From Clostridia bacterium (lineage in GTDB: Bacteria > Bacillota > Clostridia > Christensenellales > CAG-138), in the NCBI GenBank assembly GCA_017614315.1, contig JAGACA010000007.1, forward strand, positions 68,433 to 132,432: a DNA stretch of 64,000 bases. Reading direction: 5' to 3'. Of this stretch, positions 6,324-27,051 are shown one piece after another. The notes under the pieces were generated by a model. That model searched no databases and was not told where the DNA came from. It saw nothing but the letters and a program-made list of their open reading frames with translations. Position numbers and translations under genes: made by a program. Each line of letters starts with the position of its first letter. The stretch's first letter is position 1.

Positions 6324-7301
6324 ATGGCGACCTCGAACTATCAGAAGATCAAGATGCTCAAGCTCATGGAGATGCTGCGCACTGACGCCGATGAAACGCA
6401 TCCCCTGACTACGGATGAGATATGCCTCCGACTGGAAGAGATGGAGATCTCCTGTGACCGCAGGACGGTCACAAAGGATATCGAACTCCTCAACCAGTAT
6501 GGGTATGAGGTGCTGAGTCGTATGGTCGGGCATAAGAAGGGGTACTTCCTTGCCGACAGAAGCTTCTCCCTGTCCGAACTCAAGATTCTGATCGACGCCG
6601 TCCAGGCCGCCTCATTTATTACCGAAAAGAAGTCGGAAGAGCTTATCGGAAAGATCGCAGGTCTCGGCAGCAGCTACCGAGCCGATCTGCTCAAAAACAG
6701 CCTCGTCAGATTCAATACGTCCAAGCATACGAACGAACAGGTCTATTATGCCGTTCTGAACATCGAAACCGCACTCCTCGAAAGGAAGAAGGTTTCGTTT
6801 TTCTATTATGATCTTGATGAGAACGGCGAACGAGTGTACCGAAAGAACAAGCGCCGCTATATTGTCGATCCCGTTTCGCTCGTTATGCACGAGGACAACT
6901 ACTACCTGCTTGCATACAGCGAGAAGTACCACGGCCGCACGACCTACCGCATCGACCGTATGGAGACCGTGGATATCGAGGACTCTTCTATTTGTACTGA
7001 AGCGCAGGACATGCAGAGCTCCGTCGACGAGCATGTGAAGCAAGCTTTCCGCATGTACGGCGGCCGTATTGCGAAGGTCACTCTCCAGTTCGATCGTTCG
7101 CTCATCGGCTGCATCTACGATAAGTTCGGCGAGGATACGAAGATTACCTCCCAGGGAAACGACCTATTCCGTACGACCGTCAATGTTCAGGTCGCTCCGA
7201 CCTTCTTCGGCTGGGTGTTCCAGTTCATGGGCAAGATGGAGATCGTAGGGCCGAAGAGCGTTAAAGAAAAGTATTTGTCGCTTCTCAATGCCAAGTTATG
7301 A
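6324..7301 (+). CDS. WYL-domain transcriptional regulator (HTH-WYL-WCX type), copy 1
   Basis: 325 aa. N-terminal HTH (LTTDEICLRLEEMEISCDRRTVTKDIELL). Collinear paralogue of 25969-26988, sharing the blocks ELKILIDxVQAASFIT, EDNYYL, QAFRM, DKFGE and TFFGW. Confidence 0.8.
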   Translation: MATSNYQKIKMLKLMEMLRTDADETHPLTTDEICLRLEEMEISCDRRTVTKDIELLNQYGYEVLSRMVGHKKGYFLADRSFSLSELKILIDAVQAASFITEKKSEELIGKIAGLGSSYRADLLKNSLVRFNTSKHTNEQVYYAVLNIETALLERKKVSFFYYDLDENGERVYRKNKRRYIVDPVSLVMHEDNYYLLAYSEKYHGRTTYRIDRMETVDIEDSSICTEAQDMQSSVDEHVKQAFRMYGGRIAKVTLQFDRSLIGCIYDKFGEDTKITSQGNDLFRTTVNVQVAPTFFGWVFQFMGKMEIVGPKSVKEKYLSLLNAKL

Positions 7302-7351
7302 ATTGAGTAACATGCAAGAAATATAGTAATATTGAAAGAAGAGAGTGTGTC

Positions 7352-8488
7352 ATGAGTGAAGTAAAAAAGCTTCGTGTCTTTGAGGCATTTGCAGGTATTG
7401 GGGCCCAGGCCTCAGCTTTAGAGCGGCTTGGGATCAATTATGAAATTGTAGGAATTAGCGACTGGTTTATTGACGCAATTGAATGTTATGCAGCTATTCA
7501 CTGTGAGAATGTCGAAGTGGATGTTCCCCAGGATATTAAACTCGTCGAAGAATACCTTAATCAGTTTACGTTTAGTGCTACGTCTATTAGGCCAACTAAC
7601 TTAAAGATTCTATCTGAAGATCAAAAACGCGATTTATACAGGGCAAATAAAAAAGCAAATAACTACGGGTCCATAACTGAATTAAAGGGCGCGGATATGC
7701 CATTAACAGATTTGCTTGTTTACAGTTTTCCTTGTCAGGACCTTTCAACAGGTGGACTAGGGAAAGGCATGAAAAAAGGCTCCGGTACACACTCCGGACT
7801 GCTTTGGGAGATTGAAAGGATTTTAAAAGAGCTTTCAGCTCTTAATAGATTACCGGAATATCTATTGCTTGAGAACGTGAAGACTATTAAAGCAGATAAG
7901 AACAAAGAAGATCTTGAACAATGGTTGGGGTTTTTGAACTCAATAGGGTACTCAAACAGTAATTGCATGATTCTAAATGCATTGGATTTTGGAGTGCCCC
8001 AGGATCGCGAAAGAGCATTTATTGTCAGCCATTTAGGAGAGGTCCTAAATGTTAAAGAGAAAATCGAATCCAAAAAGAAAGAGCGACAGTACAATATTCA
8101 CGATTTCATAATGGATGATTATCAAAACCCAACTTACAAGCGGGAAGCAAACATCGCGCAACTAAATAAAACTCCCTCGAGAGATGTAATGTGGGAGATT
8201 AACGGAAAAGAGATAAACGACAACACAATAATCAGAACCATAACGTGCAATATGGATCGGACACATACTGCAGCTTTGTTCGAATACACCGGCCCAAAGG
8301 GGAAGACTTACCGAAGACTAACGCTTCGTGAAGCCTTCCTGTTAATGGGGTTCACTGCTGATGAATACGAAAAAGCAGCATCTCTTGGATATAGTTACCG
8401 TAAGCTTAATAAGTTAATCGGCAACTCTATTGTTGTGAACGTGCTGGAAGCTGTATTTGATTCAATGTTCGGTGATAAGTATAAATAA
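7352..8488 (+). CDS. dcm: DNA (cytosine-5) methyltransferase
   Basis: 378 aa. Motif I FAGIGAQ, motif IV PCQDLS, motif VI ENV, motif VIII QDRERAF, motif X GNSIVV. Confidence 0.95.
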   Translation: MSEVKKLRVFEAFAGIGAQASALERLGINYEIVGISDWFIDAIECYAAIHCENVEVDVPQDIKLVEEYLNQFTFSATSIRPTNLKILSEDQKRDLYRANKKANNYGSITELKGADMPLTDLLVYSFPCQDLSTGGLGKGMKKGSGTHSGLLWEIERILKELSALNRLPEYLLLENVKTIKADKNKEDLEQWLGFLNSIGYSNSNCMILNALDFGVPQDRERAFIVSHLGEVLNVKEKIESKKKERQYNIHDFIMDDYQNPTYKREANIAQLNKTPSRDVMWEINGKEINDNTIIRTITCNMDRTHTAALFEYTGPKGKTYRRLTLREAFLLMGFTADEYEKAASLGYSYRKLNKLIGNSIVVNVLEAVFDSMFGDKYK

Positions 8489-8569
8489 CTTTCAGACGAA
8501 AGATGTAACGAACCTAGGCAGAGTGATAAACAAAAAAGCAGGTTTGCACCGCTTGGAAAGGTAACAAAA

Positions 8570-10033
8570 ATGGGTGAATTAGTTGAAAAACATTTCCCGG
8601 CAAAAGCGTTGCTTACGGGGCTAAGGGCTATCGGGTATAACTTTTCAACTGCTGTTGCGGATATTATAGACAACAGCGTCTCGGCCCAAGCGAATACCGT
8701 TAGAATCTATTCTGATCCTCTTGCAACTATTCCGTATTTCTGCATTCTTGATAACGGAAACGGAATGAGTTTTGCTGAACTTAACAACGCAATGCTTCCA
8801 GGATCAGATAGAACGGGCAAAGAGGACTGCGAGCTTGAGCTCGGCAGGTTTGGTCTTGGCTTAAAATCTGCTTCTCTTTCTCAGTGTCGAGAGTTTATCG
8901 TAGCTAGTAAGAAATATGGCAAAATCAATGCAATGTCATTTGACTTAGACGAGATAGAAAACAGCAACAAGCTCGTCCTATCAGTGCTGGATAAAAATGA
9001 GATCGCCGAACTGCCATATATTGCTGAACTGCGCGAGTACTATAGCGGAACATTAGTAGTTTGGGAAAAGTTTGATAAAATTGAATCCAGCTCTAAGAGT
9101 TTCGAAGATAGCTTTAGGAGCGCTGTTGCCGAAGCAAAAAAACACGTAGAATTCGTATTTCATAGGTTCTACGATGATCTTGAAATCTACTTCAATAACA
9201 AACGAATCGAGCGAAGAGATCCGTTTTTGCTTGGTTCATTCGGACGTCAGCAAACGGGCAGAACAACAAGGATCAGTATTGGAGAATCTATTATTACGGT
9301 AACACCATACACTTTGCCGTTTGCAAACACGCTGACATCCGAGGAAAAAGCACTGCTAGGCAATCCGAAGAGCATATATGACGAGCAAGGGTTTTACATC
9401 TATCGGAACAAAAGGCTTATCTCTTGGGGCAATTGGATGAGGATGGGCATACGCAGTGAGCTGAATAAGCTGGCCAGGATTCAGGTTGATATTCCATCGT
9501 CCTTAGATGAAGTATGGACTTTAGATGTTAAAAAGTCCTCTGCAAAAATTCCTGATATCATAAAGAACCAGATAAAAGCTGCCGTTGAGGATTCGGTAAT
9601 TAGAAGCAGAAGGACAACGCGTTTCCCGGGCGTAAAGGAACAGATGCCCGAAGTCCAAGTTTGGGACCGTGTTAATTTGCACGAAGGCCAGATTAAATAT
9701 CAGATAAACAGAGAAATGCCCGCTATAGTTGCACTCTCCAATGCCATAGGCGAGAGCGAGAAAGAATTGTTGGAAATAGTGCTGTCGCAAATTGAAAGCT
9801 ATCTTCCTAAGTATCGTATTAATAACGATAATATGGATGCATTAACCATTGTTAATTCTGGAGAAGACGTCGAAGACGAGCGACTGATAAGCGAGATAGA
9901 AACCATCATTGCCTTCTTTGATAGCGAAACGAGAAAGAGTGTCTTCGAAAACATTTTCATGGCAGAAAACTATCAGAGACTATTACCCAGGAAAGAAGAA
10001 ATTAAGAGGAGGATTTTTGGAAATGACAACTGA
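8570..10033 (+). CDS. MutL/MORC-like GHKL (HATPase_c_3-type) ATPase
   Basis: 487 aa. Bergerat-fold motifs VADIIDNSVSA (N box), ILDNGNGMS (G1) and GRFGLGLKSAS (G2). Confidence 0.85.
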   Translation: MGELVEKHFPAKALLTGLRAIGYNFSTAVADIIDNSVSAQANTVRIYSDPLATIPYFCILDNGNGMSFAELNNAMLPGSDRTGKEDCELELGRFGLGLKSASLSQCREFIVASKKYGKINAMSFDLDEIENSNKLVLSVLDKNEIAELPYIAELREYYSGTLVVWEKFDKIESSSKSFEDSFRSAVAEAKKHVEFVFHRFYDDLEIYFNNKRIERRDPFLLGSFGRQQTGRTTRISIGESIITVTPYTLPFANTLTSEEKALLGNPKSIYDEQGFYIYRNKRLISWGNWMRMGIRSELNKLARIQVDIPSSLDEVWTLDVKKSSAKIPDIIKNQIKAAVEDSVIRSRRTTRFPGVKEQMPEVQVWDRVNLHEGQIKYQINREMPAIVALSNAIGESEKELLEIVLSQIESYLPKYRINNDNMDALTIVNSGEDVEDERLISEIETIIAFFDSETRKSVFENIFMAENYQRLLPRKEEIKRRIFGNDN

Positions 10034-12809
10034 GAAATATCAAGTAGCAGTTAATACGCTTTATACTGTACTATACGGTGCGATTCAGGGTAAACGGATT
10101 CCGCACAACGATGTCGTTCAGACTGCGAAGGCTCTTTTTCCGATAGTGCTTCCTAATTTGGTTGCAACGGAAGAACACAATCCTATTGTAAAAGCGGTTG
10201 TCAGCCGTTACGAGAGCGAAGTCGGAATTATAACATACGATCCTGAGTTCATTGATATTGACCGAGAAGCAAAGTATTGGCTATACAAGGAAAAAGAGCG
10301 TATTCAACATCCGTTTTTTGACAGATACAAGCTCTATCTGTCAAACAACGGATTTGAACCTAAGGTGATAACAAATATTGAAACTACTTGTGAACAGATT
10401 CTGGCAAGATGCGCAAACCCAAAGACTACAGCTTTGTCAGAAAAGAAAAAAGGCCTAGTTGTTGGAGATGTTCAATCGGGAAAAACAGCCAACTATCTTG
10501 GCTTAATTAATATGGCGTATGACTACGGGTACCGCATAGTTGTTCTTTTAGCGGGAACAACCAATTCTCTTCGCGAACAGACACAAAAACGTACAGACAG
10601 CGGAGTGATTGGCGCAAGAAGTGAAACTATCGGCAATACAATTGAATTTATAGGTGTTGGTCTAAATACCAACGAACACTTTGCTGTGCCGTTCACAAAT
10701 CAGATTAATGATTTCAAAAAATTTGTTCAAAAGAATTATAATGTTGCAATTGCAGACATAAATAAACCGGTCGTATTGGTCGTTAAGAAGGTTAAGAGCG
10801 TTCTGGAAAGTGTAGCCGAAAGACTTCAATATGAATTGAGCGATAAAGGTTTGGATTGCAAAAGCATTTTGATTATTGATGACGAGGCAGATAATGCTTC
10901 TATCTCGACAGCAAAAGATCCGGACAAGCCTACGGCTATTAATCGATGCATTCGTGATATTTTCAACAAATTCCCGATTGCATCGTATGTTGGGTATACA
11001 GCAACGCCGTTTGCTAATATTTTTATCAATCCCAAAGACGACGAAAGCTATTTGGACTTATTCCCGAGCGATTTTATAGCTCAGCTTCATGCACCGAGCA
11101 CATACTTTGGCGGAAGGCTTGTCTTTCCGGCTGACGGAACCCGTTCTAGGTATGTAAGATTAATTTCTGAGAGCGAAGATAATTTTCTTCCGGTTGTTCA
11201 CGATAAATATGTGCAATACCCTGCCATGGCAAAAAGCTTGGTTGAGGCTATAAATTCGTTTGTTATCTGCAATGTTATAAGAACACTTCGCGGCCAGGGA
11301 CTAAAGCATCGTAGCATGATGATTAATATCACAAGGTATAACGATACACAGGCTCTTATTTGGGAGAGAGTAAATGAGTATCTTGAAAAACTCAAAAATG
11401 CTATTGAGCAGTTAAGTGATATGCCGGTTGCCGAATTCATCAAGAACCGTTACTGCAATGCTCTTTACGAACTATACACTAAAGATGAGTTTTTTAAAAT
11501 CATTCGTGAAGGAAATAGCGAAGAAGCAGAAGGGCCAATCCCTTGGGAACAGATTCAGAGCGGGTTGTATGATGAAATCAAAAAAATCATTGTGGTTGTA
11601 ATCAACTCAAGAAATGGACAAATGAATAACCTTGACCCTTCAGGGAGTAAAAAACGCTTTGACTATGATGACAAAAAGGATGAAGGAGCCAGGGTTATTG
11701 CGATCGGAGGCATGGTGCTTTCTAGAGGCCTTACTCTTGAGGGGCTGATGATTAGCTACTATAGCAGACATGCCGGGGCATACGATACGCTTCTCCAGAT
11801 GTGCCGTTGGTTCGGATATAGGCCAAGGTATATGGACTTATGCCGTATTTATCTGTCTCAAATCAGCATAGACCAGTTTGATGCAGTTTTATCCGCCACG
11901 GAGGATTTAAAAACGCAATTTGGAGAAATGAAGTTGCGCGATAAGAAGCCTAGTGACTTCGGCATTATGATCAAAGAATGCCCTGACACTCTTGAAACAA
12001 CGTTGCTCATAACAAGCAGAAACAAAATGCGCGGAACGGAGACTTTTGTCCGCAGTCTCAATTACAGCGGTGTCTATGCTGATACATCGAAATTGGATAA
12101 AGATCCTGCTGTGAATAAGCATAACATTGAGGCTTTCCGAAGATTCTGCAAAAATGTCGAATTCAAGTGGGTGAGCAAGGATGGTAATCCAAACTCACAT
12201 CGGTACTACATGGCACAAAAAGTGTCTCAGCATTACATTGCCCAACTGTTTAAAGATATACGTATACCAATAGAAAATAAAAAATTTAATACTGCAGGAC
12301 TTGCGGAGTATACAGAGGATAGTGACAAGTACCCCTGGTGGGACGTCGTAATTGCAAATGGAAGTCAAAAAGATGGAAAGCAGTTTATGGACGTTTATCC
12401 GGTCGTTCGTAGTTTTCATACTAGAAGCGAGACAGATTTTATTCGAATCGGTGGATCAAACAACCGAGTCCTCGATCCTGGACAGTTAAATGCAGGGCTA
12501 TGGTACAAAGAAGGAGAAGCACTATCAGCAAAGGAATACTTAAAGCACCGCAGAACGCCTATTCTTGTAGTGTTTCCCATAGCACTTAATGAAGTAAGTC
12601 AAGAAGACACGGAAGATGAAACGATTTATAAAGCAAAGGCAAAGGCTGCTTTCGAAGGGGAAGTGCTACTTGCGTTCTCATATGCCTTTCCCGATACAGA
12701 AACAAAAGTTATGGTGACATATAGAGCAAATGCTGTGATGATAGATCAGATGATAAAAGGAATTGAAACTGACGATGAAGACGAAGGAGTTGAAGACACA
12801 GATGATTGA
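10023..12809 (+). CDS. Z1-domain P-loop NTPase (helicase-like)
   Basis: Start re-set to the ATG at 10023 (AGAGGAGGA upstream; overlaps the upstream stop). Walker A GDVQSGKTANY and Walker B ILIIDDEADNAS. Size and position match Z1 proteins of Dcm-linked operons. Confidence 0.75.
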   Translation: MTTEKYQVAVNTLYTVLYGAIQGKRIPHNDVVQTAKALFPIVLPNLVATEEHNPIVKAVVSRYESEVGIITYDPEFIDIDREAKYWLYKEKERIQHPFFDRYKLYLSNNGFEPKVITNIETTCEQILARCANPKTTALSEKKKGLVVGDVQSGKTANYLGLINMAYDYGYRIVVLLAGTTNSLREQTQKRTDSGVIGARSETIGNTIEFIGVGLNTNEHFAVPFTNQINDFKKFVQKNYNVAIADINKPVVLVVKKVKSVLESVAERLQYELSDKGLDCKSILIIDDEADNASISTAKDPDKPTAINRCIRDIFNKFPIASYVGYTATPFANIFINPKDDESYLDLFPSDFIAQLHAPSTYFGGRLVFPADGTRSRYVRLISESEDNFLPVVHDKYVQYPAMAKSLVEAINSFVICNVIRTLRGQGLKHRSMMINITRYNDTQALIWERVNEYLEKLKNAIEQLSDMPVAEFIKNRYCNALYELYTKDEFFKIIREGNSEEAEGPIPWEQIQSGLYDEIKKIIVVVINSRNGQMNNLDPSGSKKRFDYDDKKDEGARVIAIGGMVLSRGLTLEGLMISYYSRHAGAYDTLLQMCRWFGYRPRYMDLCRIYLSQISIDQFDAVLSATEDLKTQFGEMKLRDKKPSDFGIMIKECPDTLETTLLITSRNKMRGTETFVRSLNYSGVYADTSKLDKDPAVNKHNIEAFRRFCKNVEFKWVSKDGNPNSHRYYMAQKVSQHYIAQLFKDIRIPIENKKFNTAGLAEYTEDSDKYPWWDVVIANGSQKDGKQFMDVYPVVRSFHTRSETDFIRIGGSNNRVLDPGQLNAGLWYKEGEALSAKEYLKHRRTPILVVFPIALNEVSQEDTEDETIYKAKAKAAFEGEVLLAFSYAFPDTETKVMVTYRANAVMIDQMIKGIETDDEDEGVEDTDD

Positions 12810-17840: not shown

Positions 17841-17877
17841 TGTTATAATGTCTGAAATAGATATACAGTATATCTAT
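17841..17877 (+). promoter_or_regulatory. Extended -10 promoter plus 21-bp perfect palindrome operator
   Basis: TGTTATAAT at 17841-17849. ATAGATATACAGTATATCTAT at 17857-17877 is a perfect dyad. It lies between the divergent RHH and SLOG genes. Confidence 0.6.
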
Positions 17878-17896
17878 AACAATTCGGAGAGATGAT

Positions 17897-18995: not shown

Positions 18996-19028
18996 AATTG
19001 ACTAATTGATTTTGCTCGTTTAGTATGG

Positions 19029-19508: not shown

Positions 19509-19543
19509 ATTCGAACAGATTCCTTCTCATACGTTTATAATTC

Positions 19544-20491: not shown

Positions 20492-20516
20492 TATTTCACT
20501 CTCCATCGTATTGTTT

Positions 20517-20801
20517 CTATACTTCAAATCTTTCAATGACAGTGTCTTTCACATAGATCGGCTTAAGTTCCTTTAACCGACCGAAGTGCTCCGTTGCGGC
20601 GTGCGCGGTAAGGGCACCTTCGTCCCGCCACTTTTCAACAAGAAGGAGCTCGTCGCTGCCGTCAAAGGGGATGTAATAATCGTACTTGATATTCCCATCT
20701 TCTGCGCGGGAGGCCTTGTCGATGCCCTCGGCGATTATCCTTTCAAGGAAATCCTCGCGCATATCCGGCTTGCACCTGTAAGTAACGTTCAATACTATCA
20801 T
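20517..20801 (-). CDS. ABM (antibiotic-biosynthesis-monooxygenase-like) small ferredoxin-fold protein
   Basis: 94 aa. MIVLNVTYRCKPDMREDFLE...LLLVEKWRDEGALTAHAATEHF is the typical ABM-domain pattern. Strong RBS GGGAGGA. Confidence 0.7.
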   Translation of the reverse strand: MIVLNVTYRCKPDMREDFLERIIAEGIDKASRAEDGNIKYDYYIPFDGSDELLLVEKWRDEGALTAHAATEHFGRLKELKPIYVKDTVIERFEV

Positions 20802-20848
20802 ATTATCCTCCCGAGTTTCTGACTGTTGGAATGGCTTGGCTAATGGTC

Positions 20849-20877
20849 ATTATAGCATAAGAGTTGGATCCTTTGAA
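20849..20877 (-). promoter_or_regulatory. Promoter of the ABM-nuclease-159aa-230aa operon
   Basis: On the minus strand: TTCAAA (20872-20877), 17 nt spacer, TATAAT (20849-20854), preceded by TGC (extended -10 TGCTATAAT). Confidence 0.55.
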
Positions 20878-20930: not shown

Positions 20931-23900
20931 TTACTTCGCACTCGTGGCGAGTTCTGCGGTAATCGAGAACTCTTTCTTGCAAAGCACAGAGAAGGAATCG
21001 CTTATCTCTCCATCAACGATAAAGTTGTCGAGGATGATTATCTCCGGTTCTGCGTCGAATACATTGCCGACATAATAGATGCGATACGAATTAGGATTGT
21101 CCATTGCGGTTCTGTATTCGTTATCGCTGAGCTGGAAACGTATTCCCTCAAATACTGACGTCTTAGATGCTTTGACCTCGATCAGGAACCTGTTGCCGTC
21201 TTTATCAAATACTTCAAAGTCGTATCCGAGACCAGCCTTGCCTTCCGGACATACCTTTGCTTTCTTGGCGTTCTCCGAAAGCCAATTAACCCTTTCATAT
21301 TCACCTGACTTTTTAAGCTCATCGTAAACGAGTTGCTCACCCTTCAATCCGGTTCGCTCATTCTCTTTGGAGCTTTCCTTTTTTATGAACCCGACCTTGC
21401 GGCCTCCAGAACTGGACGACGCTGAGAGCGGGGCCGCTGTTATAGGAACACCGGTGAGCATCCTAATTGTCTGATTTTGCGGTTCCTCTATTGGCGCCTC
21501 TTCCTTCACATGACTCTTCAGCAATTCTGAATAACGCTTGTTTAACTCACCGAATTCGCCATAATAAACCAAGCTCACATTTTCCTGCTCTGTAAGGAAT
21601 TCTTCCAATGCAGACTTGTCTTCCAACTTAGATTCCCATGCATCCAGATTCGCATTGTACAGAGAGACAAGGTTTACCGGCTCCGCTTCAAAGTTTATCC
21701 CAAGAGCTTTTTCTATTGCTTCATCCATGTCGAAATAGACTGTGTTCTCTACGGGTATGCGTATACTCCTAAAACCAGTAAGTGCCTTAACGAGGGTTTT
21801 CTTATCCTGCAAGGATCCTTTCTCTAATCTCCTAAAGCAAGAAACCTTATACTGATCTTCAAGTCTTGCCTTTCTTCGATCCACTTCTTCCTCGTAATAG
21901 GGACACAGATTAATCCTCTCAGACGGGATCTCCGCGTTATAATCGCTGACATCTACCCCGAGCGTCTTGAATAGACGAATAATGCTGCGTGCATTTGCAA
22001 TGCTGGAGAAGTCATCAAAATCCAACGCATCAGCGACAGATTTTTCTGCCGAGCAATCTCTGCCAGTTATTGTTGAAACGATCCGGACAAACTCTTCCTG
22101 AAGATCCTCGCTGAAATCCAGCGCTTCTTTAGCTCTAACGATTATTGATCTGCTTTCGATATCTTGAAGCAGTAGTTCCTCTCTGTCTTTGTTGTTGCCG
22201 AGGTTGAATAGCTCACGGAATTTCGACAATGACGAGGAAATATCAAGATTAGAGCAGAGAATATTCGCAATTGCCGATGCCAATGCCAAATTATGCCCCA
22301 TATTCCTTGAGACCGAGAAATCCTCCGGCACTTTTAAATATACATCGTGGTTTTCCCCTGTTATAAACTCATAGTCGTATAGTTCATAGACGCTTCCATC
22401 AAAACTCGATCTGAGCTCGGAACAGATCGTTATCGAAATATTGCTGATTTTTCTTGCCTCATCCTTGACATCAGAATCAGCTTTTATATCCGCCAACCTA
22501 TATGCAAATGCGAGCGGTACGAACCTCCTATACTCAAGGCTGAATTGGTCGTTTTCGGGATGTACTACCGGTGTTCCATATAGTTCTTCGTGAACTTCAA
22601 GTCGCTTCACACCAAGGTATTTTTCTACGACTTTTGCGCTTCTTCTGCTTGGAACACTCAACACATTGCACGATTCCAAAATACGCCTGCTAACGTTCTT
22701 TTCCGGCAAGTATCGTGCTTCACTCACAGGATAATAGCCATCGTCACATAAGACTTTACCTTCAGCAAAGAACCGGCCTCTCTCTTTGCACTGATCAATT
22801 TCAGAGTAAGTTTCATTGCTTGTAACAAACGCCTCGTACATTCTTGCAGCAATGCGCTCTGAATTCTCTTTATCAGGAAGCAGCATCAATACAGAATAAA
22901 TTGTATCAAGTGGCAATTCGGGGAATCCCCCTTCTCCGTATCCTTTTTTTACCCCCATGCTTTGCAATACCGAAGAGTACTTCTTTTTTTGATCACGCGG
23001 GTTCCCCTTAACGTTCTTTATGTAATCTGACACATTTGGGCTGACCAATATAGGGGAAAGGTCGCAGTCGCTTTCTAAATCAAGCATACAATTGCCCGGC
23101 AAGTATCGTTGACCGTTTGCTTCAATCCACGGAGTTGTGATAAAGCAATCATACAAATATGAGTAAGGCTCCGTAAGTTCTGGAAGCGTAACAGGCTCTC
23201 TCTTCCTGTCCCAAAGAATCTGAACTGCGTCCTTAACCGCAACCACGTCTTTTTTTGTAGATAGGATTTCTCTAAGCTTTGAATCGCTTAGAATCCACTC
23301 TATTATTGTTTCTGTTGAGCACTCATTAAGAATAATTGTCAGCTCATCGATTTCGTATCTATAAATCGCTATGCTGGTGAGTCGATACAACAAGTCATCT
23401 AAAGACTTAAACCTGTCCTTTCCGACAGGGAGGGGAAAATGTAGCTTTTCAAGCACCCTCTTTATGTACTCTTCTCTAAATCGATTATGCCGCCAATGCT
23501 TGTTAATGTAGATTCGAGGAAGCGCGGCAACACCAAATATGCCAAGGAAACGAATTATACTTTTGGCATCGATTCCCGTCGGTAAAATGTCCTTTATGTC
23601 AGATATAAGCAGTTCGGGATGCTTTTCAAACAACCTTTCACAAAGGTCATTACCATACTCTTTACCATAGTAGAGCTTGCTGGAAATAACGAACTCACCC
23701 TTCTTCGTCAGAAACGGAAAAGTTGTCCTGATCTTTTTATCGATAAAACTTCCTTGATTATTCCAAAACCATGCGATCATTCGCTTCCACTTAGTTTTTG
23801 CTTGTGAGGGCTTACTCGTTTTGATAATAGTATCAAAGCTCGTGCGTATGTGTTCAGTTATTCTTTCAAGGTTGAACTTCTTGATATTAAAGCGACTTAA

Positions 23901-25601
23901 GTCCTCGACATCATCAAATGTGTTTACATTGTCTCGATTGATATACTTAATCAAGAAATCTCGCATATAAGGATGAATAATCTCGAAATTGATGAAGCCC
24001 GGAAGTGTTTCAATTTCCATGTCTTCTTCGAGAAGAAAAGCGGGATTATCAGGGTTATATGGGATGGTCTTCCCTGCCGTATTGACAAAAAAGCCCGGGC
24101 AAATCGCTTTATTATAATAAATGCTCCACCTATACTGGTTATAGAACGCAAAAGCAAGTTTAACTCTGTTTCGAACTATTTCCTTGCCATTATCCGTTGT
24201 AAAGTCCGTTCCGTCTTGACGGGCCAGCTGCTTAGAAAGTATCTTGCTAATATACTCATAGTCATAAATCCTCCAATCATCATCTGCTACACTTTTTATG
24301 AAGTTTTCTCTATCGCTGCCTTCTTCAACATGCAAAAGGCACTGCTCGAACCCTTTCCCTCTTAAGCATTTTGCAAGCCCGTTGTTGTACCACTTGGTAT
24401 CATCAGTAAAGGATATGTATTTTCCATTTACATTTGGGAAAATCGATGCGTCCCTTGCGGCCTCAACAATGTAGGTGTCAAAATTCTTGATATCTGTAGC
24501 AAGAGTCCTTTGTGCAATAAGCAGATCGATGATATCGTAATTGCTGGTCTTTTGCCGTCCAACAGCCGTGGCAGTTTCGACTAACAGTTTTGCTGCAGCA
24601 CGCAGAATTGTTTCGTTAGTTTTTGATTTTATCAAATGATTTCGGCTCTGATCAAGCAAAAAGCTCGCATGTATTAAGAACTTCGGATAAGGGAAATCAA
24701 CGTTTGTCCGAAAATAACTATATACATGCTGTTCAGTTTGTGCTATTCCTTCGCTGCAATATGCAACAACAACATTGTAGCTTTTTTGTTTGGATTCGTC
24801 ATTATCATCTGCAACATAACCCTCGCAACGGTTTAGTGTCCAAGTCCTATCACTAATAATTGAGCCATTGACTGATTTCCTTAACTGAACCCTGTCCCCC
24901 TCGGTCGTCTTAGAATACCGGATCCTCATCTCCGGCATATCAATATCGACCTGCTCGGTTCTGTTCAGGAATAGGAGCAAGTTTTCATCAAGAGCCTCTA
25001 TCTGTTTCTTGATGTCCTCTGCAATGTCAGTATTATCCTTTACTTTGATCGAAACTGTAGTTGTGAAATCGCCTTGTGCACTGCAATCTTCAAGCCACTC
25101 CGGGAAAGCAAGCGTAGCGGAACAGACATTAGAAGGCAGTGTCCTTCCTACGCTTTCGAAAGTTGAAACGAGCTTTCTCTGAGAGTGTTCATCGGAGAAA
25201 CGCACATGAAGATCGCCGCTGTTTATGGTAACATAATCAGCCCAACTTAGAATGGATCTAAAGCCGGTGCCTTTGTTTCCTATCAAGTCCTTTTTCCTGT
25301 CTCGCTTTGAACTGGTGTTCGAGTACATAAGAGACTCGATACCTTCCTCAGAGAACGGTTCACCATAATTCGATATAGACAAAACGTTATTCTCGAATGA
25401 AATCAGAATATGCTTTGGCAGATTATCAATCGCTTCATCATCTGCATTTTGGATCAGTTCTAAAAGCTGTCTGCCGTTGTATGCCTCGATATCCGCTTTC
25501 TCTCTGGCAAAGTCGGATTTGATTTGTGAAGTTGATATACGGTAAATTTCTTGCCTTTTCTTAATCTCTATATCGATGTATTCCTTCATCGGATTGTTCA
25601 T
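20931..25601 (-). CDS. 1,556-aa NO VEIN/sacsin-like GHKL ATPase fused to a C-terminal DUF3883 restriction-endonuclease-like domain
   Basis: N-terminus has YNGRQLLELIQNADDEA, SNYGEPF, LIGNKGTGFRSILSWAD and FLIHASFLLDQSRNHL (sacsin-type Bergerat fold). C-terminus has GLKGEQLVYDELKK..GLGYDFEVFD..NRFLIEVKASKT..YRIYYV (DUF3883 pattern). About 1,000 aa in between carry no motif I recognise. Confidence 0.75.
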   Translation of the reverse strand: MNNPMKEYIDIEIKKRQEIYRISTSQIKSDFAREKADIEAYNGRQLLELIQNADDEAIDNLPKHILISFENNVLSISNYGEPFSEEGIESLMYSNTSSKRDRKKDLIGNKGTGFRSILSWADYVTINSGDLHVRFSDEHSQRKLVSTFESVGRTLPSNVCSATLAFPEWLEDCSAQGDFTTTVSIKVKDNTDIAEDIKKQIEALDENLLLFLNRTEQVDIDMPEMRIRYSKTTEGDRVQLRKSVNGSIISDRTWTLNRCEGYVADDNDESKQKSYNVVVAYCSEGIAQTEQHVYSYFRTNVDFPYPKFLIHASFLLDQSRNHLIKSKTNETILRAAAKLLVETATAVGRQKTSNYDIIDLLIAQRTLATDIKNFDTYIVEAARDASIFPNVNGKYISFTDDTKWYNNGLAKCLRGKGFEQCLLHVEEGSDRENFIKSVADDDWRIYDYEYISKILSKQLARQDGTDFTTDNGKEIVRNRVKLAFAFYNQYRWSIYYNKAICPGFFVNTAGKTIPYNPDNPAFLLEEDMEIETLPGFINFEIIHPYMRDFLIKYINRDNVNTFDDVEDLSRFNIKKFNLERITEHIRTSFDTIIKTSKPSQAKTKWKRMIAWFWNNQGSFIDKKIRTTFPFLTKKGEFVISSKLYYGKEYGNDLCERLFEKHPELLISDIKDILPTGIDAKSIIRFLGIFGVAALPRIYINKHWRHNRFREEYIKRVLEKLHFPLPVGKDRFKSLDDLLYRLTSIAIYRYEIDELTIILNECSTETIIEWILSDSKLREILSTKKDVVAVKDAVQILWDRKREPVTLPELTEPYSYLYDCFITTPWIEANGQRYLPGNCMLDLESDCDLSPILVSPNVSDYIKNVKGNPRDQKKKYSSVLQSMGVKKGYGEGGFPELPLDTIYSVLMLLPDKENSERIAARMYEAFVTSNETYSEIDQCKERGRFFAEGKVLCDDGYYPVSEARYLPEKNVSRRILESCNVLSVPSRRSAKVVEKYLGVKRLEVHEELYGTPVVHPENDQFSLEYRRFVPLAFAYRLADIKADSDVKDEARKISNISITICSELRSSFDGSVYELYDYEFITGENHDVYLKVPEDFSVSRNMGHNLALASAIANILCSNLDISSSLSKFRELFNLGNNKDREELLLQDIESRSIIVRAKEALDFSEDLQEEFVRIVSTITGRDCSAEKSVADALDFDDFSSIANARSIIRLFKTLGVDVSDYNAEIPSERINLCPYYEEEVDRRKARLEDQYKVSCFRRLEKGSLQDKKTLVKALTGFRSIRIPVENTVYFDMDEAIEKALGINFEAEPVNLVSLYNANLDAWESKLEDKSALEEFLTEQENVSLVYYGEFGELNKRYSELLKSHVKEEAPIEEPQNQTIRMLTGVPITAAPLSASSSSGGRKVGFIKKESSKENERTGLKGEQLVYDELKKSGEYERVNWLSENAKKAKVCPEGKAGLGYDFEVFDKDGNRFLIEVKASKTSVFEGIRFQLSDNEYRTAMDNPNSYRIYYVGNVFDAEPEIIILDNFIVDGEISDSFSVLCKKEFSITAELATSAK

Positions 25602-25660: not shown

Positions 25661-25948
25661 CTACGCTGCCTGCTGCATCTCATTCTTCTTGATCGTGAAC
25701 TTTAGGCTGCGCCTCTCATCGTCAACGATCACTTCATAGAGGATGTAATTCTCTCGCCTGCTCACTTCTTCAAAAGGACACGCGAGCACCCGGCCAAGGA
25801 GCGCTGTTAGATCGTCGAAGTCACGGGCGATGTTAAGCGTATAGAAAATGTATTCTATCCTGTTTTCGCAGTCCGGCTGCAGAGGAAGGCATCGCAAAGA
25901 TACGTTTTCTCCGTTTTCGTTAAGATAAATAATGTTGTTCTTAATCAT
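25661..25948 (-). CDS. Hypothetical 95-aa protein between WYL regulator 2 and the giant gene
   Basis: ORF with RBS AAAGGTG. No recognisable motif. Tightly spaced with both neighbours (20 nt and 59 nt). Confidence 0.5.
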   Translation of the reverse strand: MIKNNIIYLNENGENVSLRCLPLQPDCENRIEYIFYTLNIARDFDDLTALLGRVLACPFEEVSRRENYILYEVIVDDERRSLKFTIKKNEMQQAA

Positions 25949-25968
25949 ATGCTCACCTTTCTGCAGAC

Positions 25969-26988
25969 TCAGTTCTGCTCTTCTTCCTTTCCTTTGTTCA
26001 CGATCATTTCGAGATGATCCAGATACATCTTTCTAACTCTTTCGGGTTCGGTTATCGTAATGTCCGTACCGAACTGTGCCAACCAGCCGAAGAATGTCTT
26101 GCTGACCTGAACGTCGACTGTTGCTGTGCAGGTATTCTCATCGATCGTTTTCATGCGTAGGCTTTCGCCGAATTTATCTACGATCGGAGCAATTAGGTAT
26201 TTGCTGAATTGAAGCTTTACCTTTGCCTGCTCGCCATTGTGCATTCTGAACGCCTGTGAAGTGTATTTCGCTACGTTTTTCTGCTTTGCCAGCGCTTCTT
26301 TTGATATCTCGGAATCCTCTATCACATCAACAAAGTCCATTCGGTCTAACCGGTAATTTGATGTGTGTCCGGGGTACTTTGCATTGAAAGCCATGAGGTA
26401 GTAGTTGTCCTCGCTCAGGACAAGAGCGACTGGTTCTACCTGATACCTCCTCCGCGTTCCATCCTCCCGCGTGCGGAAAACCCGCTGCATATTAACGTCA
26501 AGGTCGAAATATGAAAACGCGATCTGTTTTCTCTTCTGTATGGCGCTTTCTATGTGATCGATGTTGTAGAGTATGGATTCGTTCGAATGCTTGCGGGTGT
26601 TGAATTCAGAGCGATACCTTTTTAACAATTGTTTTCGATGCGAGCCTCCGAGAGCAGCGATCTTGTCAACAATCTGATTGGTCTTTTTCGGCGTAATGAA
26701 ACTGGCCGCCTGCACCGAGTCTATCAGTATCTTCAATTCCGGTATTGAGAATTCGGTCTCGGGGATATAGTAGAACTTTTCATGATCCTGCATGAAACTA
26801 CACACCTCATAACCGGACTCATTTAGGAGTGCAACATCGCGGCTGATCGTTCTGGAGGAACATGGGACGCCTTGATCTCCGAGCCTGCGACAAAGCTCAT
26901 TGCGAGAAATAGGATGCTCTTCATCCGTTTCTTTCAGCAACAGCTCGTATAGCTTCAGCAAAATCAGTTTTGTCCCGTTTTCTGACAT
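25969..26988 (-). CDS. WYL-domain transcriptional regulator, copy 2
   Basis: Start re-set to the ATG at 26988 (GAGGGAGGAAG upstream). The track start at 27018 would lie upstream of the predicted TSS. Full-length collinear paralogue of 6324-7301. Confidence 0.8.
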   Translation of the reverse strand: MSENGTKLILLKLYELLLKETDEEHPISRNELCRRLGDQGVPCSSRTISRDVALLNESGYEVCSFMQDHEKFYYIPETEFSIPELKILIDSVQAASFITPKKTNQIVDKIAALGGSHRKQLLKRYRSEFNTRKHSNESILYNIDHIESAIQKRKQIAFSYFDLDVNMQRVFRTREDGTRRRYQVEPVALVLSEDNYYLMAFNAKYPGHTSNYRLDRMDFVDVIEDSEISKEALAKQKNVAKYTSQAFRMHNGEQAKVKLQFSKYLIAPIVDKFGESLRMKTIDENTCTATVDVQVSKTFFGWLAQFGTDITITEPERVRKMYLDHLEMIVNKGKEEEQN

Positions 26989-27022
26989 TAATCTTCCTCC
27001 CTCGATATTAATCGTCATCTGA

Positions 27023-27051
27023 ATTGTACTATGAAAGCAATGTCATTGCAA
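27023..27051 (-). promoter_or_regulatory. Promoter of WYL regulator 2 with embedded 13-bp palindrome
   Basis: On the minus strand: TTGCAA (27046-27051), 17 nt spacer, TACAAT (27023-27028). The perfect dyad GCAATGACATTGC (27037-27049) overlaps the -35 and the spacer. Confidence 0.55.

What the first reader, a model, noticed from the sequence alone, without database searches (positions are those of the whole stretch)
6324..27051. Cargo island bracketed by two inward-facing paralogous WYL regulators
Seen: the 325-aa (6324-7301, plus) and 339-aa (25969-26988, minus) proteins are collinear paralogues. Shared blocks are ELKILID(A/S)VQAASFIT, EDNYYL, QAFRM, DKFGE and TFFGW. Each is the first gene of a long operon reading into the island. 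Everything between them is nuclease, ATPase or methylase-type cargo. Known: WYL-domain factors such as BrxR and CapW repress adjacent defence operons and are recurrent markers of defence islands. Inference: this is a modular arrangement of two independently regulated defence cassettes inserted back-to-back in the ICE accessory slot. The paralogy may also provide homology for cassette exchange.
Basis: partly seen in the sequence, partly recalled or inferred. Interest (0 to 1): 0.6.

Follow-up and report, generated by a model that had tools for sequence, protein, structure and literature searches.

The report
Two WYL-regulated defence operons in ICE
A mobile element of a gut or rumen Clostridia bacterium carries two anti-phage gene clusters facing each other, each headed by its own sensor-regulator gene; this is a clear but largely expected example of a layout already known to be widespread.

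Summary
The 325-aa and 339-aa proteins are 48% identical HTH-WYL-WCX proteins. They face inward and bracket a low-GC island inside an integrative conjugative element. Each heads its own operon. The left operon is an Mza-like system plus Vsr plus an AspBHI-like methyl-dependent nuclease. The right operon is Tiamat (TmtA) plus uncharacterised genes.

Three parts of the interpretation need correcting.

1. They are not close paralogues. More than 118 database proteins are closer to each than they are to each other. Relatives that are 63-92% identical head unrelated cargo: Ssp, Dnd-like, type I-C CRISPR-Cas, type I R-M, an SbcCD-like system and others.
2. They are not BrxR/CapW-family members. There is no sequence match, the RWHVR motif is absent, and both AlphaFold models match the activator DriD best, including its three-helix bundle.
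3. Their DNA shares at most 18 identical bases, in inverted orientation. That is not enough for cassette exchange.

New here is a family-wide 20-bp palindromic operator exactly 7 bp upstream of near-consensus -35 boxes. The two clades differ at one half-site position. The regulators also have backbone-like GC3 while the effectors do not.

Multiple independent defence-associated WYL regulators per genome have already been published. Verdict: a new member of a known kind, of moderate interest.

The parts
5499..6092 (-). LexA-like HTH + S24 peptidase gene (197 aa). It is ICE backbone and is divergent from WYL1. Its promoter-like site is TTGACT-17-TATAAT at 6164..6136.
   Evidence: Pfam Peptidase_S24 at 1e-33. 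The 197-aa gene call is confirmed in public contigs. Promoter scan. RBS and ATG read.
6200..6219 (.). Candidate WYL1 operator GAGTCGATTTCTGGCGACAA, of the family type GAGTCRC-N6-GYGACTC. It lies between the divergent LexA-like and WYL1 promoters, 37 nt upstream of the WYL1 -35 box. A right-arm-like half-site CCGACTT sits at 6245-6251, 5 nt before the -35 box.
   Evidence: Pattern search. Family motif derived. Sequence read. The same split arrangement occurs in the 84%-identical locus L057.
6257..6285 (+). WYL1 promoter: -35 TTCCAT (6257-6262), 17-nt spacer, extended -10 TGtTATAAT (6277-6285).
   Evidence: Read from sequence. Conserved in L006 and L007, whose DNA homology to the window starts at 6251.
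6324..7301 (+). WYL1: a wHTH - three-helix bundle - WYL - WCX regulator of 325 aa, first gene of the left operon. GC3 is 70.6%, like the ICE backbone.
7352..8488 (+). C5 cytosine DNA methyltransferase (Dcm type).
   Evidence: Pfam DNA_methylase at 4e-55. PADLOC MTase_II.
8570..10033 (+). MzaB-like MORC/HATPase_c_3 ATPase.
   Evidence: PADLOC MzaB at 1.5e-59. Pfam HATPase_c_3.
10023..12809 (+). MzaC-like Z1-domain ATPase (928 aa). Its start overlaps the end of the MzaB-like gene.
   Evidence: PADLOC MzaC at 7e-101. Pfam Z1. 928-aa gene call.
12802..13734 (+). MzaD-like DUF4420 PD-(D/E)XK protein.
   Evidence: Pfam DUF4420 at 3e-47. PADLOC MzaD at 5e-12.
13738..15828 (+). MzaE-like AIPR abortive-infection protein.
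   Evidence: Pfam AIPR at 1e-82 and AIPR_N. PADLOC MzaE at 8e-61.
15842..16258 (+). Vsr very-short-patch repair endonuclease.
   Evidence: Pfam Vsr at 3e-29. PADLOC Vsr.
16260..17570 (+). AspBHI-like methyl-directed restriction endonuclease, last gene of the left operon.
   Evidence: Pfam RE_AspBHI_N + Mrr_cat. PADLOC mREase_II at 9e-154.
17586..18316 (.). Central divergent pair: Arc-like ribbon-helix-helix gene (17586-17786, minus strand) and YpsA/SLOG gene (17897-18316, plus strand). Both have backbone-like GC3. The pair separates the two operons.
   Evidence: Pfam Arc and YpsA. GC3. Gene calls.
18303..20801 (-). Tail of the right operon: ABM-fold protein (20517-20801), PD-(D/E)XK_4 protein (19544-20491), DUF6998 (19029-19508) and a 230-aa protein with no family (18303-18995). 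None has a PADLOC match.
   Evidence: No terminator-like structure between TmtA and ABM. Promoter-like site at 20877..20849.
20931..25601 (-). TmtA, the Tiamat defence protein (1556 aa): sacsin-like ATPase at the N-terminus, NOV_C at the C-terminus.
   Evidence: PADLOC TmtA PDLC03964 at 1.3e-266 over the full length. Pfam NOV_C; the SACS match is below the curated cut-off.
25661..25948 (-). 95-aa ORF with no family, between WYL2 and TmtA.
   Evidence: Called as a gene in public contigs.
25969..26988 (-). WYL2: a wHTH - three-helix bundle - WYL - WCX regulator of 339 aa, first gene of the right operon.
27023..27078 (-). WYL2 control region: 20-bp operator GAGTGAC-AAATCT-GTCCACG (27078-27059), 7-nt gap, -35 TTGCAA (27051-27046), 17-nt spacer, -10 TACAAT (27028-27023).
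   Evidence: Sequence. The palindrome is conserved with compensating arm changes and the same 7-nt gap in 6 of 6 clade loci. Promoter scan.
27148..27188 (-). Intrinsic terminator after the sortase gene: a hairpin followed by a U6 run. It insulates WYL2 from the conjugation operon.
   Evidence: Inverted repeat. Fold energy -18.5 kcal/mol, z = -2.96.
27211..27927 (-). Sortase gene, the last conjugation-module gene before the cargo slot.
   Evidence: Pfam Sortase. Related ICEs recovered with this protein.

Best explanation
This is a defence-cargo hotspot of an integrative conjugative element in a Clostridia MAG. It lies between the conjugation module (ending in NlpC/P60 and sortase) and the LexA-like/UmuC-like/integrase module. 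It holds two convergent operons.

Each operon begins with a self-contained control head. The head consists of a 20-bp palindromic operator, a sigma-A-type promoter, and a gene for a homodimeric wHTH-3HB-WYL-WCX regulator.

The left head drives a methylation-linked, Mza-like system (Dcm, MORC-like ATPase, Z1, DUF4420, AIPR), plus Vsr and an AspBHI-like methyl-dependent nuclease. The right head drives Tiamat (TmtA) and four uncharacterised genes.

The two regulators belong to one very large Clostridia-centred family but come from different clades. They recognise operators that differ at one half-site position: GAGTC(A/G)C versus GAGTGAC. The operons are therefore probably controlled independently while sensing a common cue.

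By analogy with DriD, CapW and BrxR, that cue is probably single-stranded DNA or related nucleic-acid fragments bound by the WYL domain after DNA damage or phage attack. This step is inferred.

I favour ligand-released autorepression (about 0.55), because the target promoters are near-consensus and would not need an activator. DriD-style activation remains a live alternative.

The regulator-plus-promoter heads are portable or resident units onto which different defence cargo has been joined. The evidence is that DNA homology to other loci stops at the 3' end of the regulator gene, and that the regulators have ICE-like GC3 while the effectors do not.
For: - Homology and architecture of the two proteins.
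- Defence identities.
- ICE context. Integrase, relaxase, Toprim, ParA/ParB and tRNA-Arg. T4SS genes.
- Own promoters. There is a terminator after the sortase gene. There is no structure between WYL1 and Dcm or between TmtA and ABM.
- Different clades. More than 120 closer relatives for each protein. In the NJ tree the common ancestor of the two is the root.
- Same regulator with different cargo:
  - 92% relative heads an Ssp-like system.
  - 72% relative heads SNF2/SACS genes.
  - 65% relative heads a Dnd-like system.
  - 65% relative heads type I-C CRISPR-Cas.
  - 86% relative heads an SbcCD-like system.
  - 76% and 70% relatives head other cargo.
  - 63% relative heads an MTase/SNF2/DndD-like set.
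  - 40 signature cargo proteins fall into 25 clusters.
- Homology limits are 6251-7243 and 27079-26039 only.
- Operator. 32 of 65 upstream regions carry GTCRN-N6-NYGAC, against a shuffle mean of 0.36 and maximum of 3. In 21 of them the core ends 9 nt before -35, so the 20-bp site ends 7 nt before it. The WYL2 clade shows this in 6 of 6 loci, with compensatory arm changes.
- Fold. DriD at E = 6e-15 and 5e-14, against BrxR/CapW at about 1e-6, for both models.
- GC3. WYL1 70.6 against cargo 38-44. WYL2 56.2 against TmtA 44.8. Backbone mostly 55-66, with sortase at 48.5. The same trend appears over 62 loci.
- The hotspot in related ICEs holds WYL + type I R-M + CBASS-like genes, Kiwa, a NACHT STAND protein, DUF4365, DUF6119, Cas6 and RHS.
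- Literature. Independent defence-associated WYL regulators sense ssDNA without cross-talk, and Mza is a frequent partner (PMC13622015). CapW releases DNA when it binds ssDNA (PMC11662680).
Against: - No experiment shows binding, ligand sensing or the sign of regulation.
- The operator is centred near -52.5 and does not overlap -35 or -10. The operators of the characterised repressors do: BrxR of Acinetobacter covers -51 to -27, and the E. fergusonii BrxR site lies downstream of -10 (PMC9122589, PMC9122601).
- For WYL1 the full palindrome is displaced to 37 nt upstream of the -35 box, with only a half-site next to the promoter. Control of the left operon is therefore less clear than control of the right.
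- Higher GC3 in the regulators could partly reflect gene-specific codon usage rather than a different origin.
- The AlphaFold models have modest pTM (0.44-0.47).
- An internal promoter-like site before the ABM gene means the tail of the right operon may be a separate unit.
Confidence: 0.75

Rival explanations
1. The regulators work like DriD. When the WYL domain binds ssDNA, the dimer binds the upstream palindrome and activates the operon by contacting RNA polymerase. The defence genes would then be switched on, not derepressed.
For: Both models match DriD and PafBC (activators) far better than BrxR/CapW, and they include the three-helix bundle typical of homodimeric WYL activators (PMC10853764). 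The WYL2-clade site YGAC-N6-GTCR resembles the DriD box CGAC-N7-GTCG (PMC10853764). The site sits upstream of -35 with rigid 7-bp spacing, as expected for a factor that contacts polymerase. The RWHVR motif of the repressor group is absent (PMC11662680).
Against: DriD sites overlap the -35 position of promoters that lack a -35 box (PMC13004042). The promoters here have near-consensus -35 boxes (TTGACA, TTGAAA, TTGTAA) and extended -10 boxes, so they should be strong without help. All defence-associated WYL factors tested so far are repressors (PMC9122601, PMC9122588, PMC13622015).
Confidence: 0.3
2. One reading: the two genes are close paralogues of the BrxR/CapW family, and their similarity serves as a recombination substrate for exchanging cassettes within the island.
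For: They share 48% identity and the same domain order. Each heads a defence operon, as BrxR does.
Against: Each has more than 118 closer relatives elsewhere, and the two fall on opposite sides of the tree root. The longest identical DNA stretch is 18 nt, and the copies are inverted. There is no sequence match to BrxR or CapW, the RWHVR motif is absent, and DriD is the better fold match.
Confidence: 0.04
3. The WYL proteins are not operon regulators. They only autoregulate, or they act as accessory modulators of the effector proteins, as WYL1 does for Cas13d. The cargo would be expressed constitutively from other promoters.
For: No operator copies are found inside the island. A promoter-like site lies before ABM. 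Some family members have no co-directional gene downstream.
Against: The proteins have N-terminal wHTH domains, and conserved palindromes sit at fixed positions relative to the promoter. Intergenic gaps are short (20-82 nt) with no terminators between the regulator and the cargo. Across the family the regulator recurs as the first gene of defence operons.
Confidence: 0.07

Closest known systems
Defence-associated WYL regulators (daWYL), with several independent ones per genome (PMC13622015; BrxR family survey PMC9122601)
   Same: A WYL transcription factor sits immediately upstream of a defence system. There are several such pairs in one genome, each controlling its own system. The element is an ICE, as with SXT/BREX. 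Mza is a reported frequent partner.
   Different: Here the two pairs are adjacent and convergent in one ICE hotspot. The regulators belong to a Clostridia-centred cluster that is not the BrxR/CapW/WYL-DE cluster. Tiamat as the partner was not among the pairings I read.
BrxR (E. fergusonii, Acinetobacter) and CapW repressors
   Same: wHTH-WYL-WCX domain order, a homodimer-type palindromic site near their own promoter, and position as first gene of or adjacent to a defence operon.
   Different: No detectable sequence similarity, about 35-50 residues longer with a three-helix bundle, YYL in place of the RWHVR motif, and an operator upstream of -35 rather than overlapping or downstream of the core promoter.
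DriD (Caulobacter), the homodimeric ssDNA-activated WYL activator
   Same: It is the best structural match for both proteins, and similar in length (326 aa). It has the same five-part architecture. Its palindromic site has GAC/GTC cores and an A/T-rich spacer.
   Different: Only 15-19% identity. DriD controls DNA-damage genes, not defence operons. The DriD box overlaps the -35 position of promoters that have no -35 box; here the site is 7 bp upstream of a good -35 box.
Mza (PADLOC MzaB-E) and the 'type II' methyltransferase/DUF4420/AIPR system of Miller et al. 2022 (PMC9523054)
   Same: MORC-like ATPase, Z1, DUF4420 and AIPR in the same order, together with a cytosine methyltransferase and a putative transcriptional regulator.
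   Different: There is no sigma-factor MzaA. Vsr and an AspBHI-like methyl-dependent nuclease are appended in the same operon.
Tiamat (TmtA)
   Same: Full-length match to a PADLOC TmtA model at 1e-266.
   Different: It is preceded by a WYL regulator and a 95-aa ORF, and followed by ABM, PD-(D/E)XK, DUF6998 and 230-aa genes of unknown role.
Defence hotspots of ICEs (e.g. SXT/R391 hotspot 5)
   Same: A fixed slot in a conjugative element whose content varies between relatives and consists of anti-phage systems.
   Different: The ICE family is different (Clostridia, sortase/NlpC-P60 type T4SS). The slot is bounded by inward-facing regulator heads.

Membership tests
BrxR/CapW group of WYL repressors | wHTH - WYL - WCX domain order | tested here: met
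   Pfam HTH_11, WYL and WCX are found in that order in both proteins. WYL is above threshold. HTH_11 is below its cut-off in both, and WCX clears its cut-off only in the 339-aa protein.
BrxR/CapW group of WYL repressors | Detectable sequence relationship to BrxR or CapW | tested here: not met
   phmmer with both proteins, and a 58-sequence profile, against all PDB chains (which include 7QFZ, 7T8K, 7TB5/6 and 9C5G) gave no WYL-protein hit.
BrxR/CapW group of WYL repressors | Conserved RWHVR motif in the WYL domain (PMC11662680) | tested here: not met
   The corresponding strand reads EDNYYLLA in one protein and EDNYYLMA in the other, and is invariant D-Y-Y across the family.
BrxR/CapW group of WYL repressors | Closest structural relatives are BrxR or CapW | tested here: not met
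   Foldseek gives DriD at 6e-15 and 5e-14, PafBC at about 1e-11, and BrxR/CapW at about 1e-6, for both models.
BrxR/CapW group of WYL repressors | Operator overlapping or downstream of the core promoter, with repression relieved by ligand | tested here: inconclusive
   The palindrome spans about -62 to -43, ending 7 bp before the -35 box. Repression itself cannot be tested with these tools.
DriD-like homodimeric WYL regulators | wHTH - linker - three-helix bundle - WYL - WCX | tested here: met
   The AlphaFold models place helices at 83-95, 101-114 and 117-125 (WYL1) and at 82-94, 100-112 and 116-124 (WYL2), between the wHTH and WYL domains. The best matches are full-length DriD chains. pTM is only 0.44-0.47.
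DriD-like homodimeric WYL regulators | Pseudo-palindromic site of CGAC-N7-GTCG type | tested here: inconclusive
   The WYL2 clade has YGAC-N6-GTCR (for example GAACGACAAAACTGTCGTTC in L051). The WYL1 side of the family has the related GTCRC-N6-GYGAC. These are similar to the DriD box but not identical.
DriD-like homodimeric WYL regulators | Site overlaps the -35 position of promoters lacking a -35 box (PMC13004042) | tested here: not met
   The site ends 7 bp upstream of near-consensus -35 hexamers.
DriD-like homodimeric WYL regulators | ssDNA binding triggers DNA binding and activation | not testable with these tools
   Needs biochemistry and reporter assays.
Defence-associated WYL (daWYL, PMC13622015) | WYL protein encoded immediately adjacent to a recognised defence system | tested here: met
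   WYL1 lies 51 nt upstream of the Dcm/Mza-like genes. WYL2 lies upstream of TmtA with one 95-aa ORF between them.
Mza system | MzaB, MzaC, MzaD and MzaE homologues in one operon | tested here: met
   PADLOC E-values are 1.5e-59, 6.6e-101, 5.2e-12 and 7.8e-61.
Mza system | MzaA (described as a sigma factor in PMC9523054) | tested here: not met
   No such gene is present in the operon. A Dcm methyltransferase and a WYL regulator precede the MzaB-like gene. This fits the 'type II' layout of PMC9523054 better.
Tiamat | TmtA homologue | tested here: met
   PDLC03964 at 1.3e-266, residues 5-1542 of 1556.
Integrative conjugative element | Integrase + relaxase + coupling protein + VirB4-type ATPase on one compositionally distinct segment | tested here: met
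   The element ends were not located: no direct repeat links the tRNA-Arg region and the left edge of the window.

The most novel reading that the evidence does not exclude
The inward-facing WYL genes may be resident 'landing pads' of the ICE, not cargo. Each would be a fixed operator-promoter-regulator head native to the element, with backbone-like GC3. Foreign low-GC defence modules would be repeatedly swapped in downstream, by recombination at the 3' end of the regulator gene. Any newly captured system would then come under ssDNA-responsive control at once. The regulators would also form an uncharacterised DriD-like clade whose operator at -52.5 acts by a mechanism different from BrxR/CapW, either activation or trapping of polymerase.
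Probability: 0.25. Interest if true: 0.6.

Novelty: new member of a known kind. Interest (0 to 1): 0.35.

Why it matters
The locus adds a clean Gram-positive ICE example to the emerging rule that defence systems travel with their own WYL sensor-regulators.

Two results could be reused:
- A sequence-defined operator and promoter grammar for a very large, uncharacterised, DriD-like clade of defence-associated WYL regulators in gut and rumen Clostridia.
- Evidence that regulator heads and effector cargo have separate histories.

The operator grammar makes regulons predictable. The family can also serve as a guilt-by-association probe for unknown cargo, such as the ABM/PD-(D/E)XK/DUF6998/230-aa genes here and the unannotated proteins in L057, L116 and L124.

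The locus does not change the overall picture of how defence islands are regulated.

Tried and rejected
- Exact-protein look-ups with WYL2, the sortase and the LexA-like protein returned only copies of this same ICE from one study. They gave no slot variants, so the slot comparison rests on more distant ICEs.
- Sequence searches of the PDB with single proteins and with a profile found no WYL structure. Only the fold search was informative.
- A generic inverted-repeat scan of the two upstream regions found nothing in the WYL1 region and only the terminator in the WYL2 region. A generic 7-6-7 palindrome scan across loci was noisy. The motif emerged only from reading aligned upstream regions and then testing a specific pattern.
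- The DriD-type pattern YGAC-N6-GTCR was absent from the 65 WYL1-side upstream regions. It is specific to the WYL2 clade.
- A search for more operator copies inside the window found none beyond chance.
- I looked for direct repeats linking the tRNA-Arg region to the left edge of the window, to define the ICE ends. None of 12 nt or more was found.
- No repeats marked the island borders or the junction between the cassettes. The only repeats found were the diverged WYL genes themselves.
- The literature search for Tiamat/TmtA returned nothing useful.
- I did not map the ssDNA-contact residues of DriD or CapW onto the models, because no residue-level structural alignment was available.

Full report
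**Observation**

They align collinearly at 48% identity over 307 residues, E = 2e-103, and all five quoted motif blocks are present. Both hit Pfam WYL above threshold. Both also hit HTH_11 and WCX, in that order; of those four matches only the WCX match of the 339-aa protein clears Pfam's curated cut-off. The genes face inward and bracket a segment of about 41% GC, set in flanks of about 50% GC. The flanks in turn sit in host DNA of about 59% GC.

**What the island contains**

The left gene string is on the plus strand and its genes are tightly spaced or overlapping. In order, it runs:
- WYL1.
- A C5 cytosine methyltransferase.
- A MORC-like HATPase_c_3 ATPase.
- A Z1-domain ATPase.
- A DUF4420 PD-(D/E)XK protein.
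- An AIPR protein.
- Vsr.
- An AspBHI-like methyl-directed endonuclease.

PADLOC scores four of these as MzaB, MzaC, MzaD and MzaE (1.5e-59, 6.6e-101, 5.2e-12, 7.8e-61). It scores the last two genes as Vsr and mREase_II (9e-154). [quoted passage not shown]

The right gene string is on the minus strand. In order, it runs:
- WYL2.
- A 95-aa ORF with no family.
- A 1556-aa protein that matches the Tiamat TmtA model over its full length (1.3e-266).
- An ABM-fold protein.
- A PD-(D/E)XK_4 protein.
- DUF6998.
- A 230-aa protein with no family.

Between the two strings lies a divergent pair: an Arc-like repressor gene and a YpsA/SLOG gene. So 'nuclease, ATPase or methylase cargo' is a fair description, but not a complete one.

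**Context**

The window is identical to part of a 219-kb scaffold of a Clostridia MAG. The island sits in an integrative conjugative element:
- To the left are a tyrosine integrase, a sigma-r4-like protein, a UmuC-like polymerase and a LexA-like S24 protein.
- To the right are a sortase, NlpC/P60, a VirB4-like ATPase, PrgI, TrbL, TrbC, a coupling protein, DUF3801, a relaxase, a Toprim protein, a SpaA/thioester adhesin and ParB/ParA.
- A tRNA-Arg gene lies at the GC shift.

I did not find the element ends.

**Are the two regulators operon heads?**

- WYL2 is insulated from the sortase operon by a hairpin followed by a U6 run (-18.5 kcal/mol, z = -2.96). It has its own promoter, TTGCAA-17-TACAAT.
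- WYL1 has the promoter TTCCAT-17-TGtTATAAT, divergent from the LexA-like promoter.
- No terminator-like structure separates WYL1 from the methyltransferase gene, or TmtA from the ABM gene.
- A promoter-like site before ABM leaves open that the tail of the right string is a separate unit.

**Are they close paralogues?**

No. Each protein has at least 120 database relatives at 53-93% (WYL1) or 53-100% (WYL2) identity. Thousands more pass E <= 1e-20. In a neighbour-joining tree of 239 full-length members, the common ancestor of the two is the root. Each ranks only 183rd or 209th of 238 among the other's relatives.

At the DNA level the two genes share only patches of 70-75% identity and at most 18 identical bases (the EDNYYL codons). 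They are also inverted relative to each other, so recombination between them would invert the island and produce chimeric regulators. It would not exchange cassettes.

**The regulator heads are portable**

Close relatives head unrelated cargo.

| Relative | Identity | Cargo headed |
|---|---|---|
| of WYL1 | 92% | Ssp-like phosphorothioation system |
| of WYL1 | 72% | SNF2/HEPN + sacsin-like ATPase set |
| of WYL1 | 65% | Dnd-like system, itself next to a LexA-like/UmuC-like pair |
| of WYL1 | 65% | Type I-C CRISPR-Cas |
| of WYL2 | 86% | Metallophosphatase + SbcC-like set |
| of WYL2 | 77% | Unannotated small genes plus a Sel1-repeat protein |
| of WYL2 | 76% | Three unknown genes in a chromosomal site |
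| of WYL2 | 70% | HNH + DUF2130 |
| of WYL2 | 63% | N6/N4 methyltransferases + SNF2 + DndD-like |

A metagenome scan recovered 80 further loci. From these, 40 'signature' downstream proteins fall into 25 similarity clusters. The clusters include type I methyltransferases, Cas3, SspC, PbeA, HerA-like and dynamin-like proteins, PDC-M09A, a HINT-DNase toxin and several proteins with no annotation.

DNA similarity between the window and these loci is confined to the promoter plus the regulator ORF. The limits are 6251-7243 against the Ssp locus and 27079-26039 against the SbcCD-like locus. Similarity collapses within the last 60-70 nt of the ORF.

Composition points the same way:

| Genes | GC3 (%) |
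|---|---|
| WYL1 | 70.6 |
| WYL1 cargo | 38-44 |
| WYL2 | 56.2 |
| 95-aa ORF | 60.4 |
| TmtA | 44.8 |
| ICE backbone | mostly 55-66 (sortase 48.5) |

Over 62 loci the regulator gene's GC equals that of its upstream flank (median difference +0.26). It exceeds the GC of the downstream 4 kb by a median of 2.6 points. It is more than 5 points higher in 21 loci and more than 5 points lower in one.

My inference is that the regulator heads and the effector modules have separate histories. The heads may be resident features of the slot. This is suggestive, not proven, because codon usage specific to small regulator genes could contribute.

**The slot is a defence hotspot**

I recovered related ICEs using the sortase protein. 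They have conserved VirB4, NlpC/P60 and sortase genes followed by variable content:
- A WYL gene (54% identical to WYL2), followed by type I R-M with YgjP, then SMODS/SLATT.
- A NACHT-pentapeptide STAND protein.
- KwaA/KwaB-like Kiwa genes.
- DUF4365.
- DUF6119.
- Cas6.
- An RHS protein.

**What kind of WYL regulator is this?**

Neither protein, nor a 58-member profile, matches any solved WYL protein by sequence. I built AlphaFold models of both proteins (pLDDT 78.5 and 79.7; pTM 0.44 and 0.47). They show a wHTH, three helices, a WYL beta domain and a WCX domain.

Foldseek ranks the matches in the same order for both models. DriD comes first (6e-15 and 5e-14, full length). PafBC comes next. 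BrxR and CapW appear only at about 1e-6.

DriD is the prototype of homodimeric WYL activators that have a three-helix bundle (PMC10853764). The RWHVR motif that marks CapW/BrxR-type repressors (PMC11662680) is replaced here by an invariant D-x-Y-Y-L. I therefore do not file these proteins as BrxR/CapW members. They fit the broader 'defence-associated WYL' class. Within that class, BrxR/CapW-like proteins make up only 12.5%, and several larger clusters remain uncharacterised (PMC13622015).

**Operator**

In the WYL2 clade, 6 of 6 loci carry a 20-bp palindrome immediately upstream of the promoter:
- GAGTGACAATTCTGTCACTC
- GAACGACAAAACTGTCGTTC
- GCATGACAATCCTGTCGCTC
- in the window, GAGTGACAAATCTGTCCACG at 27078-27059

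Changes in one arm are compensated in the other, and the gap to the -35 hexamer is always 7 nt.

On the WYL1 side of the family, 32 of 65 distinct upstream regions contain GTCRN-N6-NYGAC (the 20-bp forms are GAGTCRC-N6-GYGACTC and GTGTCRC-N6-GYGACAG). Shuffled controls give a mean of 0.36 and a maximum of 3. In 21 of these regions the 16-nt core ends exactly 9 nt before the -35 hexamer, so the 20-bp site ends 7 nt before it. The promoters are TTGACA, TTGAAA or TTGTAA, then 17 nt, then (TG)nTATAAT.

The site is thus centred near -52.5. The two clades differ mainly at half-site position 5: GAGTC(A/G)C against GAGTGAC.

In the window, the WYL1 palindrome GAGTCGATTTCTGGCGACAA (6200-6219) is of the family type. 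However, it lies 37 nt upstream of the -35 box, between the divergent LexA-like and WYL1 promoters. Only a half-site (CCGACTT, 6245-6251) sits next to the promoter. The 84%-identical locus L057 has the same split layout. No further copies occur in the island beyond chance.

**Mechanism**

Shown by sequence and comparison:
- There are two self-contained heads (operator, promoter, regulator), each followed by defence genes.
- The two operators are different.

Inferred from DriD, CapW and BrxR:
- The dimer binds the palindrome through its wHTH domains.
- The WYL domain binds ssDNA-type ligands produced by DNA damage or by restricted phage infection (PMC11662680, PMC13622015).

The sign of regulation is unresolved. 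Near-consensus promoters argue for repression, and I favour this at about 0.55. The DriD-like fold and the rigid upstream spacing argue for activation, or for a mechanism that contacts polymerase. DriD sites, however, overlap the -35 position of promoters that lack a -35 box (PMC13004042), and that is not the case here.

The characterised repressors bind elsewhere. Acinetobacter BrxR covers -51 to -27, and the E. fergusonii BrxR site lies downstream of -10 (PMC9122589, PMC9122601). The arrangement here matches neither prototype.

**Novelty**

All of the following are already published (PMC9122601, PMC13622015):
- WYL regulators heading defence systems.
- Defence hotspots in ICEs.
- Several independent daWYL regulators per genome without cross-talk.
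- Mza as a frequent daWYL partner.

This locus is a new member of that kind. The modest additions are:
- The DriD-like nature of this very large Clostridia-centred cluster.
- Its operator and promoter grammar.
- The compositional and breakpoint evidence that regulator heads and cargo assort separately.

Interest is moderate to low (0.35).

Noticed in passing
window 7352-8488, 15842-16258 and 16260-17570: One operon combines a C5 cytosine methyltransferase, Vsr and an AspBHI-like nuclease, a type that cuts 5-methylcytosine DNA. The methyltransferase target must avoid the nuclease's specificity, or else the nuclease serves to attack phages carrying other m5C patterns.
   Followed up: no
window 17586-18316; L127 8945-9286; L085 7207-7566: A divergent Arc-like / YpsA-SLOG gene pair sits exactly between the two operons and has backbone-like GC3 (59 and 53). 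SLOG homologues also lie next to WYL genes in two unrelated metagenome loci. In the L085-type human-gut group the SLOG gene is the convergent neighbour and there is no co-directional cargo.
   Followed up: partly
window 18303-20801: The ABM-fold, PD-(D/E)XK_4, DUF6998 and 230-aa genes downstream of TmtA have no PADLOC match. None recurs in any other fetched locus. GC3 is mixed (61, 51, 42, 42). A promoter-like TTCAAA-17-TGnTATAAT lies at 20877..20849. This could be an uncharacterised defence module or a set of Tiamat accessories.
   Followed up: partly
window 25661-25948: A 95-aa ORF with no family match lies between WYL2 and TmtA. Its GC3 is backbone-like (60.4). It is not found after WYL2-clade regulators elsewhere.
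   Followed up: partly
L137 15652-18992 (just left of the window; window 1-560 holds the end of the first gene): Immediately beyond the integrase, the scaffold encodes an AAA_15/AAA_21 ATPase followed by a 413-aa protein with a faint WYL hit and a 302-aa protein with a weak WCX hit. This may be a third WYL-type locus next to the ICE.
   Followed up: no
window 6220-6256; L057; L085, L088, L092, L098, L099, L103, L109, L114: In two subgroups the otherwise rigid 7-bp spacing between operator and -35 box is broken by an insertion. WYL1 and L057 carry about 30 extra nt. A human-gut subgroup carries a GC-rich hairpin of about 40 nt (CAGGCCCTCTGGGGGGC...).
   Followed up: no
L077, L094, L100, L110, L112, L115, L118 at about -36 from the start codon: A second conserved inverted repeat (TATACCTTTTTGAAGGAATA or TATGCCTATTTGCAGGAATA) lies in the 5' leader, between the -10 box and the ribosome-binding site, in one subgroup of the family. 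It could be a second operator or a leader RNA structure.
   Followed up: no
L054 3294-7760 and window 4210-7301: A LexA-like S24 protein plus a Y-family (UmuC-like) polymerase sit directly beside a WYL-headed defence operon, both in the window and in an unrelated contig. SOS-type and WYL-type modules may be recurrent neighbours.
   Followed up: no
window 49410-49486: A tRNA-Arg(CCT) gene lies right after ParA/ParB, where GC rises from about 51% to about 59%. This is probably the ICE's integration site, but no matching direct repeat was found in window 1-800.
   Followed up: partly
window 10309-10353: A near-perfect 19-nt inverted repeat (95% complementary, 7-nt loop) lies inside the Z1-ATPase coding sequence.
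   Followed up: no
L057 7021-12369; L116 1019-2482; L124 3840-5636; L110 7948-9243: Large proteins directly downstream of family regulators have no Pfam match; the one checked against PADLOC (the 1389-aa L057 protein) has no match there either. They are candidates for unknown defence genes by association.
   Followed up: partly
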